Assembly: GCA_947494155.1 (NCBI GenBank)
Contig: CANLTW010000015.1
Coordinates: 1 to 34,869, forward strand
Source: Chlamydiota bacterium
GTDB lineage: Bacteria > Chlamydiota > Chlamydiia > Chlamydiales > RGXB01
Direction of reading: 5' to 3'
DNA: 34,869 nt
The position numbers were made by a program. This document shows, in pieces, positions 27,001 through 33,000 of this stretch (within the stretch, counting starts at the first letter, position 1; each line of letters starts with the position of its first letter).

Positions 27001-30000
27001 CTCTCCCACAAGCAATTTTTCTGGAATCATTTTCAGTATTTCCAGAGTTTTCGCACACCTGTAGAAGAGCTGACGCCTATCCTCTTGAGACACCTCTTTT
27101 TGTTCCTGTAATACAAAATTTAAAGTTAATAAAACCAGGTTTAAAAGCGCACGATCCTCACAACCACTTAAATTATCTTGAAGCTGTAAAAAAAAGGGCT
27201 CTTTGAAGCCGGGATTTTCCAAAAAACGGATCATATCGATACATAAAGCGGTCACCTTTTTCCTTTCACGGGAAAAATCCACTGTCGCTTCTAATCTCAA
27301 CATCCAATTCACTAGCATCACTTTTTCTGTGTCGGTAAGATTTTGGGGTGGAGAGATACCCCTCTTTTGGGCTATTTGTGCCCATGCGGAAAAAGTTTTC
27401 TTGAATTGACTTTCGCTGCAAACATAAAAGGTTCCATTAATTCTGGCGCACAAAAGATCGAATTGCTCTTGTGGAACTGAGGTAAATTCCAAATTCAAAC
27501 TCACTAAATTTGATAATCGGGAAATTGAGAAGGGCAACTCGCTTAAATAGAGATCCCCCATCAGGTTGAGGCGCCTTAACGAGGTCAGCTCCCCAATTTG
27601 GGGGGGAATTTTCTCTAGAGGATTAAAACTAAGATCGCAGTCGACAAGCCTCTGCAGGTTTTTTACGTTAACAGGGAGCTCTTTAAGTTGGTTTTGACTA
27701 AGCAACAGCACCTTGAGTTGTTCCATATGGGCGATCTCCTCCGGTAGAGCTTCCATTTGGTTTACGGACAGATCTAGAATAACCAACGAATCCTTGAAAA
27801 GAGTTTTGGGAATACTCCTTAGGTTGTTGTGACTTAAATCCAAAGCCTCAAGCTGCCTTAGACCCGGGTAATCGGACTCATCGAAATGGAGTTTGTTATT
27901 AAAAAGATGCAAAACTTTGAGTTTTTCTAAACTTAACAGGGAGCGGGGAAATAGGCGTATGCGATTATTACCGGCACTAAATATACAAAGATCTTTAAAG
28001 GAGCTAAAACGGTCGGGTAATTCCTCTAAAGAATTGCATTTCAAGGAAAACACCTGGAGTTTTTTTAGCTGAAACACCCTTTTCGACAGTTTATCTATTC
28101 TATTTTTTTCTAAAAAGAGCTTTTCCAGGTTCTTTAAATGCTCCAAACCTTTGGGCAATCGACGGATAAGGGTCTGACAAATCTCAAGAGAAGTTAAACC
28201 TTTAAGCTCTGGGGAAAAAGGGGGAAGATTTGTAAGAGGCCTTGTGTGGATCGTGACCCTTTTACCACCATGTGCCGCATCAAGAAGTTGAAGAGCCACT
28301 CGAACCTTATCCTCTCGCCCATTTTGGTCATTTTCATGAATCCATTCGACTAGGGATTCTTTAAGTTCTTTTTTTTTCGGCTCTTTTGTAAATAGGTAAT
28401 AGCAGATGCACCCCATAACAACTGTTGCGATTTGGTAGATTAAAATCTCGCTATCGTTAAGCTGCTCCCCCTCGATTTTATCAAAATAAAAATTAAATCC
28501 TACGGGCTGCATGATAAACACTCCTATTTAAAGATCCATTTAGTGATTGATTTAGCGACCTAAATTAAGAAAAATTTATTCCGATTGGGGAAAATTAAAA
28601 CACAGCCCTTTAATTTTCCTAAATAGTTATTTGTAAAAAACAAAATAAAAGTTCTTTTTCAAAAAATTCTAAGCATGATTCCTGGCTGATCTAAGCTCCT
28701 AGACAAAAAATTATTTTTTAACGAATATTTTAAAAAAAACTATTAAAGGAGCTTAAAGATGCAACCCTTTTATCAAACCCTTTTTTTTCTCTTCTGTTTC
28801 TTAGGAATCCACACAGAGGTTTTCTGTAATTCATCCCCCAATATCCCGTTTCAGAACGAACGGCTTGCAGCTTGGATAGCGGAGGTGGAAAACTTATGCA
28901 GCCCCGATCGGGTGCATATTTGCGATGGTTCACAAGAAGAGTACGATAGCTTATGCGAAGAGATGGTAAAACTTAAGAGTTTCATTCGCCTTAATGACTC
29001 TTTACGACCCAACTGTTTTTTATCCCGATCCTCATGTGATGATGTTGCTCGCCTCGAAGATCGCACCTTTATCTGCTCTTTTCACAAAAAAGATGCGGGT
29101 CCCACCAATAATTGGAGAGATCCCGTAGAGATGCGCTCTCATCTAAAAAACCTCTTCAAAGGGTGTATGCGCGGCCGAACGATGTATGTGATCCCATTTA
29201 GTATGGGCCCTATTGGGTCGCCGATTGCCCAAATTGGTGTGGAGATCACCGACTCCCCATACGTGGTATGTAGCATGCGCATCATGACGCGCATGGGTAA
29301 GGAGGTGTTAACCGAGCTCTTAAATAAAGATTTTGTCCCCTGCCTACACTCCGTTGGGGCTCCGCTTTCTGGGGAATGTTTGGATATCGCTTGGCCTTGT
29401 AATCGGGAAAATAAATATATAGTTCATTTCCCCGAGACAAAAGAGATTTGGTCGTTTGGCAGCGGTTATGGCGGCAATGCGCTTTTAGCTAAAAAATGCT
29501 TTGCACTCCGGATTGCATCCCGAATGGGGCGAGAAGAGGGCTGGCTTGCGGAGCATATGCTTATACTAGGGATAGAAAATCCTGAAGGGGAGAAAAAATA
29601 TTTCGCTGCCGCTTTTCCGAGTGCTTGTGGAAAAACAAATCTTGCGATGCTTAAATCCTCTCTGCCTGGCTGGAAAATCACCCTTGTGGGAGATGATATC
29701 GCCTGGATGAAAATTAAAGAGGATGGAAAACTTTATGCAATCAATCCGGAAGCCGGAATGTTTGGAGTCGCACCAGGTACCTCATCAACCACCAATCCTC
29801 ACGCGATGCAAACGATCCAAAAAGATACCATTTTCACCAATGTTGGCCTTACCAAGGAGGGGGATGTCTGGTGGGAAGGGATGACCAAGGAGGCCCCTGG
29901 CGGATGTCTAAATTGGATGGGAGAATGTTTTGAGCACTGCCCTAACGAGAAAATTGCCCATCCGAATGCACGATTTGCAACTCCTATAAAAAACTGCCCT

Positions 30001-33000
30001 TGCGTTGATGAGGCTTTTGAAGATCCTGAAGGTGTTTTGATTTCTGCCATCCTTTTTGGAGGGCGACGTCAATCGGTAATTCCCCTTGTCACCGAATCTT
30101 TTAGTTGGCAACACGGCACCTTTTTTGGAACCACTGTCTCTTCAGAGGCGACCGCTGCAGCCAACGGCCCTGTAGGAATTTTAAGGCATGACCCGTTTGC
30201 GATGCTCCCCTTTTGTGGGTATAATATGGGGGACTATTTTTCCCATTGGCTCTCTTTTGAAAAACGGACCGACCCCTCTCTATTGCCAAAAATTTTCTAC
30301 GTGAACTGGTTTCAAAAAGGGGAAGACGGAAAATTTTTATGGCCCGGATTCGGGGAAAATGGGCGCGTTTTGAAATGGATTTTCGAAAGATTGGACGGGA
30401 AGGCTAAGGCAAAAAAAACCCCTATCGGTTTTGTTCCCACTTTAGAGAGTATGGATTTAACCGGTCTCCCATTAGATCATGATGCTCTTCACCAGCTTTT
30501 GAAAGTAGACCAAAAAGCCTGGCTTCAGGAGGTGGAGGAATTAAAAAGATATTTTAAGATCTTCGACCAAACATTTCCGAAAAAGCTTTCCCAAGAGCTT
30601 TTTGAACTAGAGAACCGCCTGCACGCTGACCTATCCGAAGAGGTTTCGCCCCCGTGACATTAAAGGGGAAGGAATCTACCCTTTCACTGAACAAAAAAAG
30701 GGTGCTTTTAAGAAGCACCCGATCTATCGCCCCATTTCTTAGCTCTCTTTTAGGCCGTCGCTATTTCGACTGGGTTTTTTTGTAAAAAACGGACATTTGC
30801 GGGGGGGAAATTTTTCCAGACTGTCTCAATTTTTTCCTGGTGTTTCTCTCCATAAAAGCTTTTTAGAAGTTGAATTTTTTTGAGCCTTTTTCCCCGTTCG
30901 GTTAAGGCTGCAACCATCTTCGGATATTTGTATTCGTAGTAGCTTAAAAAAGCATTAGGCTTCATCATAAGAAGATATTTTTTAAAAATAGTCTCCACAA
31001 AATCGACCGAAAACTGGTTTAAAGGCAAGCTGCTGACAATCCCATCATAATTTGCTGATTCAAAATTCTCGATAGATGTTTCGTGAACCTTAAGATTTCT
31101 GCATGCCTCATATTTTTTTCGTAATACACGACAAAGATCAGGGTCCAATTCTACAATATCCAGAGTATCTTTAGGCCCCATCTTTTGCAAAATAGAGTCG
31201 GTAACAGCTCCAGTTCCAGGCCCCACCTCAAGATATCTTTTTGGCTCCATAGAGGGCTGCATCCGTACAACCATTCGGTTCGCGAGTGCTTTCGAACTCG
31301 GAAAAAGAGAACCCATTGTTAAGGGATCACAAATGAAGCGGAATAAAAACAGCAGATTCTCTTTAAAGGACTGGGATAAACGAAAAAAAGGGGCCTCATT
31401 GACCTGGGCAGAAAAAATTTGCATTAAATCACCTAATATTAAAAATTAACGCAATAATTAAGAGCAAGTTAATTACATCGTGGATAAAATTAAAACAGAA
31501 ATAGCTATTTTTTGTTTAAAAAATAACAAAATTAAAAATTGATTCCTTTGGGGCGATTTTGTTAAATTCTTTTTATCCTTTTTTAATCAGAAGTGCCTTA
31601 TGAAAACTCTCACAACAAAAACCCTTAGTGGAGCTTTTTTCTTTTTTCCCGTTCTATCTTTTGCCTCCACCTTTACTCCGGAGCCCATTTTTGAAAGCTC
31701 TATCCCTGTTATAGATATGCGACTTTATGAAAATAGTGAAACTCAAGACGAGTTTAGCCAACAATTTACAAAAGCTCTGCATGAGATCGGTTTTTGTGCT
31801 CTAACCCATACCGGTTTTGATGAAAAGGCTTTAGAAAAAAGTTATCAAGCTTCGATCGAGTTTTTTAAAAGTCCTCGGGGAAAAAAAATGGAGCTCTACT
31901 TTCCTGATCTTAATGGTCAAAGGGGTCTGGTGATCAAAGAGAACGCACAAGGAAAAAAATCGGTGGATTTCAAAGAGTTTCTCCACTTCGGGAAGAAAAA
32001 AAATCTCTGGCCAGTTTGGATGGATCTAAAAACCCCCATGAAAAACTTGATCAAACACCTCGATGAGCACAGCGAAAAACTTCAGGATGTTTTGAGCCGA
32101 TTTATGGGGCAAAAAACAGATTTTCTTCAGGAGATGACCGTTGACGGGGACTGTGTATTAAGGGCTCTTTACTACCCCAAAAATCCCCTTTCCGATCAAT
32201 TCTGGGCTGCAGCTCATACAGATATCGATCTTTTCACAATTCTACCAATGTCTACCGAGAATGGGCTAGAGATTCTTCACAACGGGAAATGGATTCCCGT
32301 CAAGGTCCCAAAAGACGCTTTCATCATCAACTGTGGGGATATGCTTGAAAACATGAGCAACGGCTATTTTAAAAGTAGCGTCCACAGGGTGGTCTCCCAA
32401 CCCCAAAAAGAGCGATTTTCGATTGTCTACTTTGTTCATCCAAGAAATAGCGATCGTGTGGATCCGCTCGAGGCATGCATTACACTGACCGGTGGTATTA
32501 AACGTTTTCCAGATGCCTGCCATCTAGAGATGCTTGCTCACCGGCTGGTGGAGATTGGGCTAGCCTCGACTGCACTAAAAGCTTTTGACAAAGAGTCGGG
32601 GTATATCGATCGGGTGAAACAGCTAGTTATCGACGGTGTTGCTTCAGCTCCAGTGGAAAAAACCTACAACACCTGGCTCGAAATCCAAAAAGTTGATGCA
32701 TGCCAAACACCTAAAAAATAGCCTCGGGCTGGGGATACTCAAGGTGGGGGTTTTCGATTCTTTCCTGCAGCGCAGCTTGGATTCTCACCTCGGCCTCTAT
32801 TTGCCACGAATTTGTTAGAAGGCTCTGTTGGATGTCTAGGGCGCTTTCCCCTTTTTCAAGGATCCCACAGAATTTTTCTTCAAAAAGTTTACGGGTACAT
32901 TCAAGGGCTAGATGAATTTTTTGGTGGGGGCTTTCATACCTTTTTTCCGTAAATTCTCTAGCCGCTTGCGGATCAAAGTTCGCTTGTTTTAGAAACTGGT

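What a model noticed while it worked through the whole genome (the two positions that open the first line are those of the whole stretch)
28759..30657. PEP carboxykinase with a genus-specific hydrophobic leader
The GTP-dependent PEP carboxykinase g01103 starts with a 25-residue hydrophobic leader ([23 protein letters not shown]) that precedes the part shared with other PEPCKs. I read it as a membrane-tethered or exported PEPCK, peculiar to this genus. A central gluconeogenic enzyme placed at or beyond the membrane would change how carbon flow between host and chlamydia is drawn.
Evidence so far: swissprot.tsv homology starts at residue 32; ATG with AGGAG RBS. Calls 144, 167: of 14 loci with a PEPCK orthologue 10 could be read with my motif script; all 5 from this genus (G000, G129, G091, G113, G144; 70-85% identity to g01103) open with Met and a hydrophobic stretch of differing sequence (for example [sequence left out]), all 5 from other families (G006, G007, G009, G010, G002; 58-65% identity) have no such stretch before the conserved part; 4 loci (G032, G067, G005, G001) were not matched by the script.
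(Added by a program. Inside this text positions count along the whole contig: contig position 1 is position 1 of the stretch shown here. "Call 12" and the like, gene names such as g00115 and contig names such as C1 are that model's own, and its searches are not shown. The text may have been shortened before it was handed on; [...] marks where a part breaks off. The agent that wrote the report below was given it as the finding of a first reader that could run no searches.)

Follow-up and report, generated by a model that had tools for sequence, protein, structure and literature searches.

The report
Chlamydial PEPCK with export-like leader
In one genus of chlamydia-like bacteria the central sugar-building enzyme PEPCK starts with a short greasy extension that looks like a secretion signal, which suggests, but does not prove, that part of the enzyme works at or outside the cell membrane.

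Summary
Window 28759..30657 (+) encodes an intact 632-aa GTP-PEPCK. Its first 30 residues lie outside the PEPCK fold and hold an 11-residue hydrophobic core. All 7 genomes of the genus carry a 30- or 37-codon extension. It sits behind a conserved promoter-like box, a ribosome-binding site and an ATG, so it is almost certainly translated.

New points:
- The leader appeared when pckA left the mreB-pckA arrangement. mreB lies directly upstream in 24 of 24 readable outgroup loci and in 0 of 6 genus loci.
- It is not unique to the genus. One other chlamydial genome (G083) has a second PEPCK copy with a textbook signal peptide.
- The early-branching genus members have a charged n-region and an in-frame ATG after the hydrophobic core. 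The window's own subclade lost both, and its leader evolves almost neutrally.
- The genus also puts such leaders on its single UDP-glucose dehydrogenase and on a second adenylate kinase.

Best reading (about 0.45): a Sec-type signal sequence takes part of the enzyme to or across the inner membrane. Rivals are a neutral tail and a cytoplasmic-face tether. No signal-peptide predictor or localisation data were available. Earlier notes of this scan describe export-tagged enzymes in other chlamydiae and an export-tagged PEPCK elsewhere. Interest 0.55.

The parts
28700..28729 (+). Promoter-like box TAGACA, 18 nt, AATATT
   Evidence: One search found one site with 9 of 12 matches. That is not significant alone, since shuffles give a mean of 1.9. 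TAGACAAAAA(A) plus the T-run is conserved in 6 of 7 genus genomes, and G002 has TGGACA.
28746..28751 (+). Shine-Dalgarno AAGGAG, 7 nt before the ATG
   Evidence: Read directly. A purine-rich SD-like element sits at the same place in all 7 genus genomes: AAAGGAG, AAAGGAT, TAGGAGG, TAAGAGG or ATAGGGT.
28759..28848 (+). Leader, codons 1-30, lying outside the PEPCK fold
   Evidence: In the AlphaFold2 model residues 1-28 have pLDDT below 50 and the confident fold starts at about residue 31-34.
28777..28809 (+). Hydrophobic core [11 protein letters not shown] (residues 7-17)
   Evidence: core of 11 residues, 10-residue Kyte-Doolittle mean 2.92, n-region net charge 0. That mean lies between the 90th and 95th percentile of 1151 crude ORFs of the genome.
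28849..30654 (+). GTP-PEPCK catalytic body (residues 31-632)
   Evidence: Pfam PEPCK_N and PEPCK_GTP. PDB match E 5.9e-236. The protein keeps every column that is invariant across 34 chlamydial PEPCKs, including the P-loop F286-N294. Model mean pLDDT 84.
30655..30657 (+). Stop codon
30700..30720 (.). GC-rich hairpin between the convergent PEPCK and methyltransferase genes; a possible terminator
   Evidence: called it on the minus strand with a T-run. One site was found against 0.8 expected in shuffles, so the evidence is weak.

Best explanation
The gene is an intact, single-copy GTP-dependent PEPCK. In the ancestor of this genus it left the conserved chlamydial mreB-pckA arrangement, gained its own promoter and gained a translated 5' extension of 30-37 codons. 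The extension is built like a Sec-type signal sequence: a short n-region, an uncharged hydrophobic core of 11-13 residues, then a polar stretch before the enzyme fold. Most likely it engages the Sec pathway and carries at least part of the enzyme to or across the inner membrane, either cleaved or as an uncleaved anchor. From the periplasm a type II secretion system could carry it further. In the early-branching species an in-frame ATG after the core could still give a leaderless cytoplasmic form. In the window's own subclade (G000, G006, G003) that ATG and the n-region charge are gone, so export there is probably inefficient or partial. Shown: the leader, its conservation, the promoter and SD, the relocation, and the parallels in other enzymes. 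Inferred: translation, Sec engagement, location and any dual isoforms.
For: 1. Translation. The promoter-like box, SD and ATG are conserved upstream of the leader in 7 of 7 genus genomes. The frame stays open over 30 or 37 codons in all 7 although the sequences fall into three types. Shuffles with upstream composition stay open in only 1.7-6.9% of cases. G000, G006 and G003 have no other ATG, GTG or TTG before the conserved W39 helix.
2. Signal-like build. Cores are 11, 11, 13, 13, 13, 12 and 12 residues. The genome's own 31 Pfam-defined exported proteins have median 12 (range 6-19), and 14 membrane anchors have median 17 (range 7-29). The n-region charge is +2 or +3 in 4 of 7.
3. The leader is not part of the fold.
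4. Recurrence. G083 has a leaderless copy next to mreB plus a second copy elsewhere that begins MRFLMLTLFKPLVALIILTFFFSLSA|KNT. Both keep all invariant catalytic columns. The quick tree does not place this copy with the genus.
5. The same genus does this to other enzymes. The single-copy UDP-glucose dehydrogenase has a signal-like leader in 7 of 7 genus genomes and in 0 of 28 outgroup loci. A second adenylate kinase with a signal peptide occurs in 6 of 7 genus genomes and at 17 of 28 outgroup loci.
6. Machinery and substrates. Signal peptidase I is present. YajC, secretins including a GspD-like one, and pseudopilin-type N_methyl proteins are present. Three full nucleotide transporters (TLC family) are present, so host nucleotides must cross the periplasm.
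7. Precedent. C. trachomatis secretes glycogen enzymes into the inclusion lumen (PMC4829429, abstract read).
Against: 1. The window's own leader has n-region charge 0, against at least +1 in 31 of 31 Pfam-defined exported proteins of G000. However, 25 of 132 N-terminal hydrophobic cores in the crude ORF set also lack a positive net charge.
2. Leader dN/dS is about 1.1 for G000 vs G006 (29 codons) and 0.25-0.41 for three other pairs, against about 0.1 in the two bodies that could be measured.
3. The leader DNA is T-rich at all three codon positions (0.41/0.41/0.34 in G000). Composition alone gives an equally hydrophobic window in 2-20% of shuffles.
4. The gene is single-copy in all 7 genomes, so full export would strip the cytoplasm of PEPCK.
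5. The enzyme keeps its P-loop cysteine and has 19 cysteines in G000, G006 and G003. That is awkward in an oxidising compartment.
6. There is no convincing conserved -3/-1 cleavage motif. This is my manual reading by a rule I recall, not a predictor.
7. No SD precedes the internal ATGs.
8. No predictor, proteome or localisation data were available.
Confidence: 0.45

Rival explanations
1. Neutral tail. When pckA moved to a new T-rich 5' region, an upstream ATG with a good SD was captured. The extension is translated but tolerated, has no targeting role, and is hydrophobic only because T-rich DNA encodes Phe, Leu, Ser and Cys.
For: T is equally rich at all codon positions, and 2-20% of composition-preserving shuffles reach the observed hydrophobicity. 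dN/dS is about 1.1 between G000 and G006. The leader sequence diverges fast, with three types in one genus. It is disordered in the model. An outgroup (L012) has a hydrophobic but start-less frame upstream of its real Met, which shows that T-rich upstream DNA reads as greasy peptide.
Against: All 7 genomes keep an open frame, a core of 11-13 uncharged residues and exactly 30 or 37 codons despite heavy divergence. The derived clade lost the internal ATG and so made the leader obligatory. A greasy N-terminus on a soluble 600-aa enzyme should be costly. The same genus shows the same change on UGDH, G083 shows it on a PEPCK paralogue, and both of those have charged n-regions.
Confidence: 0.25
2. 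Cytoplasmic-face tether. The short hydrophobic N-terminus dips into the inner leaflet, or spans the membrane N-out/C-in, and holds an active PEPCK at the membrane inside the cell, for example near dicarboxylate or nucleotide transporters.
For: The G000, G006 and G003 leaders have no n-region charge, so the classical N-in/C-out orientation is not enforced. The gene is single-copy, so cytoplasmic activity is still needed. The enzyme is cysteine-rich.
Against: Cores of 11-13 residues are too short to span a bilayer; local anchors have median 17. The four early-branching leaders carry +2 or +3 before the core, which favours N-in/C-out. No amphipathic pattern was tested.
Confidence: 0.15
3. Secretion into the inclusion or host by a route other than Sec, for example type III secretion as for the C. 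trachomatis glycogen enzymes.
For: There is precedent for secreted metabolic enzymes in Chlamydia (PMC4829429, abstract; PMC9251005 and PMC3722199, search listing only). An EscN-type T3SS ATPase is present in G000.
Against: A hydrophobic core of 11-13 residues is Sec-like. No bilobed Inc-type hydrophobic domain is present. T3S signals cannot be scored with these tools.
Confidence: 0.07
4. Wrong start. The leader is not translated and initiation occurs at a non-canonical codon near residue 29-31.
For: Four genus members have an internal ATG. RNA contigs did not cover the leader, which is uninformative.
Against: In G000, G006 and G003 there is no ATG, GTG or TTG between the first ATG and the conserved helix; only ATC/ATA codons without an SD. 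The promoter-like box and a strong SD sit upstream of the first ATG in all 7.
Confidence: 0.05

Closest known systems
Bacterial GTP-dependent PEPCK (PckG; solved structures such as 9e34, 4wie, 4r43, 2zci) and the chlamydial PckA encoded downstream of mreB
   Same: Same two Pfam domains. It aligns over residues 31-622 at E 5.9e-236. All columns invariant in 34 chlamydial PEPCKs are kept. The gene nests inside the chlamydial PEPCK tree.
   Different: It has a 30-residue hydrophobic N-terminal extension, it has left the mreB-pckA arrangement, and it has its own promoter-like box.
C. trachomatis glycogen-metabolism enzymes secreted into the inclusion lumen (Gehre et al. 2016, PMC4829429, abstract read)
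   Same: A chlamydia places normally cytoplasmic, nucleotide-sugar-dependent metabolic enzymes outside the bacterial cytoplasm, fed by host metabolites.
   Different: Those enzymes use type III secretion signals. Here the leader is hydrophobic and Sec-like, the enzyme is PEPCK, and secretion is not demonstrated.
Mitochondrial PEPCK (PCK2) of animals (recalled knowledge, not tested here)
   Same: The same enzyme family is re-addressed to another compartment by an N-terminal presequence added in front of an unchanged catalytic body.
   Different: That is a eukaryotic amphipathic presequence, not a hydrophobic bacterial signal. There is no evolutionary link, because the genus PEPCK is sister to a leaderless chlamydial one.
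Signal-peptide-bearing PEPCK domains inside long multi-enzyme proteins of uncultured bacteria (P0061, P0090, P0137, P0077; scan note e1-4542317)
   Same: An N-terminal signal-like peptide and an intact PEPCK_N + PEPCK_GTP pair occur in one polypeptide.
   Different: Those are 1260-4177-aa fusion proteins with other domains and 42-46% identity to this enzyme. This one is a plain single-domain enzyme in a chlamydia.
   Same: A nucleotide enzyme in an ATP-importing intracellular bacterium gains an export signal. The Dependentiae notes also describe a gene that left its usual place and kept an internal start, as seen here in 4 of 7 genus PEPCKs.
   Different: It is a different enzyme. Many of those leaders are textbook signal peptides or lipoboxes with charged n-regions, and the genus keeps a separate leaderless Adk, whereas PEPCK is single-copy.

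Membership tests
GTP-dependent PEPCK (EC 4.1.1.32) | PEPCK_N and PEPCK_GTP domains over the full length | tested here: met
   PF17297 covers residues 39-258 (E 1.4e-100) and PF00821 covers 262-620 (E 2.5e-165).
GTP-dependent PEPCK (EC 4.1.1.32) | Conserved catalytic and nucleotide-binding residues, including the P-loop | tested here: met
   the window protein carries every column that is invariant in 34 chlamydial PEPCKs, including F286-P-S-A-C-G-K-T-N294, Y237-G-G-N-A-L-L243 and D312-D313. One search shows the alignment to solved GTP-PEPCKs. The assignment of roles to these motifs is recalled.
GTP-dependent PEPCK (EC 4.1.1.32) | Enzyme activity and GTP specificity | not testable with these tools
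   Needs an assay of the recombinant protein with and without residues 1-30.
Sec-type (signal peptidase I) signal peptide | Positively charged n-region | tested here: not met
   net charge is 0 in G000, G006 and G003. It is met in G002 and G004 (+2) and in G005 and G001 (+3). In G000, 31 of 31 Pfam-defined exported proteins have at least +1, while 25 of 132 crude N-terminal cores have a net charge of 0 or less.
Sec-type (signal peptidase I) signal peptide | Hydrophobic h-region of roughly 7-15 residues near the N-terminus | tested here: met
   core of 11 residues starting at residue 7, and 11-13 residues in all 7 genus genomes. The local exported set has median 12.
Sec-type (signal peptidase I) signal peptide | c-region with small residues at -3 and -1 (cleavage site) | tested here: inconclusive
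   My manual reading finds possible sites, such as V-F-C|N at residues 21-24 in G000, but no conserved motif. The rule is recalled and no predictor was run.
Sec-type (signal peptidase I) signal peptide | Positive call by a trained predictor, or experimental export | not testable with these tools
   SignalP, Phobius and DeepTMHMM are not available here.
Sec-type (signal peptidase I) signal peptide | Host machinery present | tested here: met
   Signal peptidase I family PF10502 was found. YajC and many exported families were found.
Lipoprotein signal peptide | Lipobox with Cys at +1 after the h-region | tested here: not met
   no conserved L-x-[GAS]-C. G005 has no Cys in its leader. The lipobox pattern is recalled.
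Tat signal peptide | Twin-arginine motif and a TatC translocase | tested here: not met
   No RR occurs in any of the 7 leaders. TatC (PF00902) was not found in G000, which is 97.6% complete, while the control search found it in 11 of 14 well-known genomes.
N-terminal transmembrane signal-anchor | Hydrophobic span long enough to cross a bilayer (about 18-20 residues or more) | tested here: not met
   Cores are 11-13 residues. Local anchors have median 17, range 7-29.
Chlamydial Inc-type / type III secreted protein | Bilobed hydrophobic domain of about 40 residues or more, or a type III secretion signal | tested here: not met
   There is only one short core. A T3S signal as such cannot be tested here. 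The Inc definition is recalled.

The most novel reading that the evidence does not exclude
This genus, and independently G083, has moved part of its nucleotide-linked core metabolism outside the cytoplasm. PEPCK, UDP-glucose dehydrogenase and an adenylate kinase would work in the periplasm or inclusion lumen on host-supplied oxaloacetate or PEP, GTP or GDP, UDP-glucose and NAD+. An exported PEPCK running PEP + GDP + CO2 to oxaloacetate + GTP, together with the exported adenylate kinase, would re-charge nucleotides outside the cell for re-import by the nucleotide transporters. That would amplify energy parasitism.
Probability: 0.15. Interest if true: 0.85.

Novelty: new variant of a known kind. 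Interest (0 to 1): 0.55.

Why it matters
PEPCK is drawn in every chlamydial metabolic map as a cytoplasmic link between the partial TCA cycle and PEP. If it sits at or beyond the inner membrane in a whole genus, carbon and GTP flow between host and bacterium would have to be redrawn.

The finding also fits a wider, unpublished-looking pattern. Normally cytoplasmic, nucleotide-dependent enzymes carry export signals in chlamydiae: UDP-glucose dehydrogenase, a second adenylate kinase, and Golgi-type glycosyltransferases. That pattern makes the idea of a metabolically active periplasm or inclusion testable with simple reporter fusions.

The gene history also gives a clear natural example of how a targeting signal can be born from captured 5' sequence. 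The gene relocated, gained a new promoter and an upstream ATG, and later lost the old start.

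Tried and rejected
- RNA evidence for the 5' end. Of 19 listed runs, I laid four metatranscriptome runs kept as contigs. 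Contigs at 95% likeness or more covered parts of 28883-30665 and 28300-28370. None covered the leader or the 5' UTR, so nothing can be said about the transcript start.
- Rfam scan of 28300-29000: only a chance-level miRNA hit (E 0.99).
- Origin of the leader by duplication. The promoter plus leader DNA has no second copy in G000, and TAGACAAAAA occurs at only 19 sites with no shared downstream pattern.
- Word-based protein searches with the leader regions of G000 and G083:C9 found only near-identical sequences or leaderless relatives.
- The 50%-representative search returned mostly fragments and fusions. It did not help to count leader-bearing PEPCKs, but it revealed the long signal-bearing fusion proteins.
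- Tat, lipoprotein and Inc-type readings were rejected.
- HGT from a eukaryotic mitochondrial PEPCK was rejected, because the gene nests among chlamydial PEPCKs.
- A retained SD in front of the internal ATGs was not seen, so the dual-isoform idea stays an inference.
- The careful tree search did not finish in time. Only the quick IQ-TREE tree (SH-aLRT support) is used.
- Literature. Five searches found no paper on a signal-peptide PEPCK or adenylate kinase in chlamydiae. Subscription journals are not covered.

Full report
**What is there.** Window 28759..30657 (+) is one 632-aa ORF with an ATG start.
- AAGGAG lies at 28746-28751, 7 nt before the ATG.
- Pfam places PEPCK_N at residues 39-258 and PEPCK_GTP at 262-620.
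- Solved GTP-PEPCKs align from residue 29-31 to 621-622; the best is 9e34_A at E 5.9e-236.
- In an alignment of 34 chlamydial PEPCKs the window protein keeps every invariant column, including the P-loop stretch F286-N294.
- An AlphaFold2 model built on that alignment has mean pLDDT 84. Residues 1-28 are below 50, and the confident fold starts at about 31-34.

So this is an intact PEPCK with a 30-residue N-terminal extension outside the fold. The extension reads [30 protein letters not shown]. Its best 10-residue Kyte-Doolittle mean of 2.92 lies between the 90th and 95th percentile of 1151 crude ORFs of the same 1.41-Mb, 42% GC genome.

**Is it translated?** All 7 genomes of the genus (G000-G006; the family held no other genus in my searches) have exactly one PEPCK match at 70-85% identity. 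In all 7 the frame is open upstream of the conserved 'N-KL--WI' start. It opens with an ATG 30 codons before that start in G000, G006, G003, G002 and G004, and 37 codons before it in G005 and G001.

Upstream of that ATG the genomes share TAGACAAAAAA, a T-run, an A-run and a purine-rich SD at fixed spacing; G002 has TGGACA. In the window this region is the only sigma-70-like site called, TAGACA-18 nt-AATATT at 28700-28729. That is unremarkable on its own, because shuffles give 1.9 such sites. Its conservation is what counts.

G000, G006 and G003 have no ATG, GTG or TTG between the first ATG and the conserved helix. I therefore take translation from 28759 as nearly certain.

Two cautions apply. 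First, per genome the open frame is only mildly unlikely: 7-39% of shuffles stay open with the leader's own composition, and 1.7-6.9% with upstream composition. Second, the leader DNA is T-rich at all three codon positions, so 2-20% of shuffles reach the same hydrophobicity, and 1.1-7% do so together with an open frame.

**Who has it.** I read 36 PEPCK loci from 35 genomes of other families of the order:
- L008-L032,
- L107-L114 (L108 being the G083:C9 copy, refetched as L115),
- L116,
- L173 and L174.

This set includes all 16 outgroup matches with an open frame of 620 aa or more. Thirty-five are leaderless; hydrophobicity was scored for 26 of them and their best window is at most 1.39.

The exception is G083. 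It has a leaderless copy directly after mreB (L116) and a second copy elsewhere (L115, 657 aa) that begins MRFLMLTLFKPLVALIILTFFFSLSA|KNT, a textbook signal peptide. In the quick tree the genus is monophyletic (SH-aLRT support 100) and sister to leaderless G109 (support 99). Both G083 copies sit on long branches outside that group (the careful search did not finish). The simplest reading is two independent gains.

**How it arose.** In 24 of 24 outgroup loci with enough upstream sequence, mreB lies directly upstream on the same strand. In 0 of 6 readable genus loci does it do so (L007 and L010 were too short to read). In G000 mreB is on another contig with no pckA after it. So the leader came with a relocation and a new promoter.

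Inside the genus the tree reads (G005,G001), then (G002,G004), then (G003,(G000,G006)).
- The two early-branching pairs have K/R-rich n-regions (net +3 and +2). They also have an in-frame ATG right after the hydrophobic core, within about 4-10 residues of where leaderless orthologues start.
- The derived trio, which includes the window, has n-charge 0 and no such ATG.

I infer, but have not shown, that the internal ATG is the old start. On that reading the long form was first optional and later became obligatory. No SD precedes the internal ATGs.

**What kind of leader.** Using Pfam families to define two sets inside G000:

| Set | n | Core length, median (range) | Positive n-region |
|---|---|---|---|
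| Exported proteins | 31 | 12 (6-19) | 31 of 31 |
| N-terminal membrane anchors | 14 | 17 (7-29) | 10 of 14 |

The seven PEPCK leaders have cores of 11, 11, 13, 12, 13, 13 and 12 residues. That is signal-peptide length and too short for an anchor.

Against a classical signal peptide, the window's own leader lacks the positive n-region. Twenty-five of 132 crude N-terminal cores in G000 share that trait, and some of them look like good signal peptides.

No lipobox and no twin arginine is conserved. TatC was not found in G000, while signal peptidase I is present.

Leader dN/dS is about 1.1 for G000-G006, 0.41 for G002-G004, 0.26 for G005-G001 and 0.25 for G000-G003. The enzyme body gives about 0.1 in the two pairs where it could be measured; synonymous sites were saturated in the other two. 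These samples are small, at 29-36 codons. The leader is therefore weakly constrained. That is usual for signal peptides, but in the window's own pair it is compatible with neutrality.

**Context that raises the prior.** I scanned the 166 G000 ORFs that have a hydrophobic N-terminus and no further membrane span against Pfam. Besides the expected outer-membrane proteins, binding proteins and secretins, several normally cytoplasmic enzyme families carry a leader in front of their domain:
- UDP-glucose dehydrogenase (domain starts at residue 32),
- an adenylate kinase (residue 27), next to an APH/choline-kinase-like protein,
- two SDRs, an epimerase, a HAD hydrolase, a CMAS-type methyltransferase and a GNAT,
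- glycosyltransferases of Golgi-type families (GT17, BMT, RXYLT1_C).

The UDP-glucose dehydrogenase leader is present in 7 of 7 genus genomes and in 0 of 28 outgroup loci. This is a second genus-specific case on a single-copy enzyme.

The leader-bearing adenylate kinase occurs in 6 of 7 genus genomes. In each it sits beside a leaderless Adk of 34-38% identity. At 17 of 28 outgroup Adk loci (16 of 26 genomes) there are textbook signal peptides or lipobox-like ends.

G000 also has three full nucleotide transporters of the TLC family.

C. trachomatis is known to secrete glycogen enzymes into the inclusion lumen and to draw host UDP-glucose there (PMC4829429, abstract read). Five literature searches found nothing on signal-peptide PEPCK or adenylate kinase in chlamydiae.

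Earlier notes of this scan describe export-tagged glycan enzymes in other chlamydiae, an export-tagged PEPCK module elsewhere, and Dependentiae adenylate kinases with an export signal and an internal start. I treat these as leads, not as evidence.

**Verdict.** I put about 0.45 on Sec-type targeting of at least part of the enzyme to or across the inner membrane. The rest divides as 0.25 on a tolerated neutral tail, 0.15 on a cytoplasmic-face tether, 0.07 on another secretion route and 0.05 on a wrong start.

The points that most restrain confidence for this particular window are the uncharged n-region, the near-neutral evolution between G000 and G006, the single-copy status and the 19 cysteines. 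A signal-peptide predictor and a PhoA/LacZ fusion would settle most of it.

Noticed in passing
L069:4-708 (-) in G000; outgroup loci L117-L144: A second adenylate kinase with a Sec signal peptide or a lipobox-like end lies in front of the P-loop strand. It is present in 6 of 7 genus genomes beside a leaderless Adk, and at 17 of 28 Adk loci (16 of 26 genomes) of other chlamydial families. No paper was found. It might re-charge ADP outside the cell for the ATP/ADP translocase.
   Followed up: partly
L041:5706-7097 (-) in G000; L099-L106; outgroup L145-L172: The single-copy UDP-glucose dehydrogenase has a signal-peptide-like leader of about 30 residues in 7 of 7 genus genomes and in 0 of 28 outgroup loci. 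This is a second genus-specific case parallel to PEPCK.
   Followed up: partly
L069:711-1661 (-), L047:4-867 (-), L056:960-1937 (+), L054:4-942 (-), L049:8440-9141 (+), L046:3505-4668 (-), L070:5191-5994 (+), L037:1-858 (+), L041:705-1772 (+), L070:13022-13912 (-): More G000 enzymes of normally cytoplasmic or Golgi-type families carry a hydrophobic leader in front of the domain: APH/choline-kinase-like, two SDRs, an epimerase, HAD, CMAS, GNAT, GT17, BMT-like and RXYLT1_C-like. Starts were chosen as the first ATG and were not checked one by one.
   Followed up: no
L115:803-2773 (+) and L116:647-2473 (+) (G083): G083 has two PEPCK genes. One is leaderless and lies directly after mreB. The other lies elsewhere and has a textbook signal peptide plus a linker of about 40 residues. 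Both keep the invariant catalytic columns, and both sit on long branches.
   Followed up: partly
P0077, P0061, P0090, P0137, P0060, P0129 (representative library): These are long proteins (1260-4177 aa) with a PEPCK domain. P0061, P0077, P0090 and P0137 have signal-like N-termini. P0077 also holds PALP, Glu/Leu dehydrogenase, methyltransferase, histidine-phosphatase and TIM domains. They resemble the multi-enzyme carrier proteins noted earlier in this scan.
   Followed up: partly
L008-L032 upstream regions; G000 contig C11:24628-25227 (-): The mreB-pckA adjacency is conserved in 24 of 24 readable outgroup loci and broken in the genus. In G000 the DNA after mreB holds opposite-strand genes: an Ndk-like ORF, an ABC-ATPase-like ORF and others, named by eye and not scanned.
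   Followed up: partly
window 26602-28521 (-): The divergent upstream neighbour is a 636-639-aa leucine-rich-repeat protein (LRR_8, LRR_14, LRR_4) with a hydrophobic segment near residues 25-43. It may be an effector-like protein and was not studied.
   Followed up: no
window 28759-28848 vs L002 (G006): Between G000 and G006 the leader has far fewer synonymous changes (dS 0.21) than the gene body (dS 1.2). This hints at a constraint on the nucleotide sequence around the start, such as mRNA structure or initiation, or it is small-sample noise.
   Followed up: no
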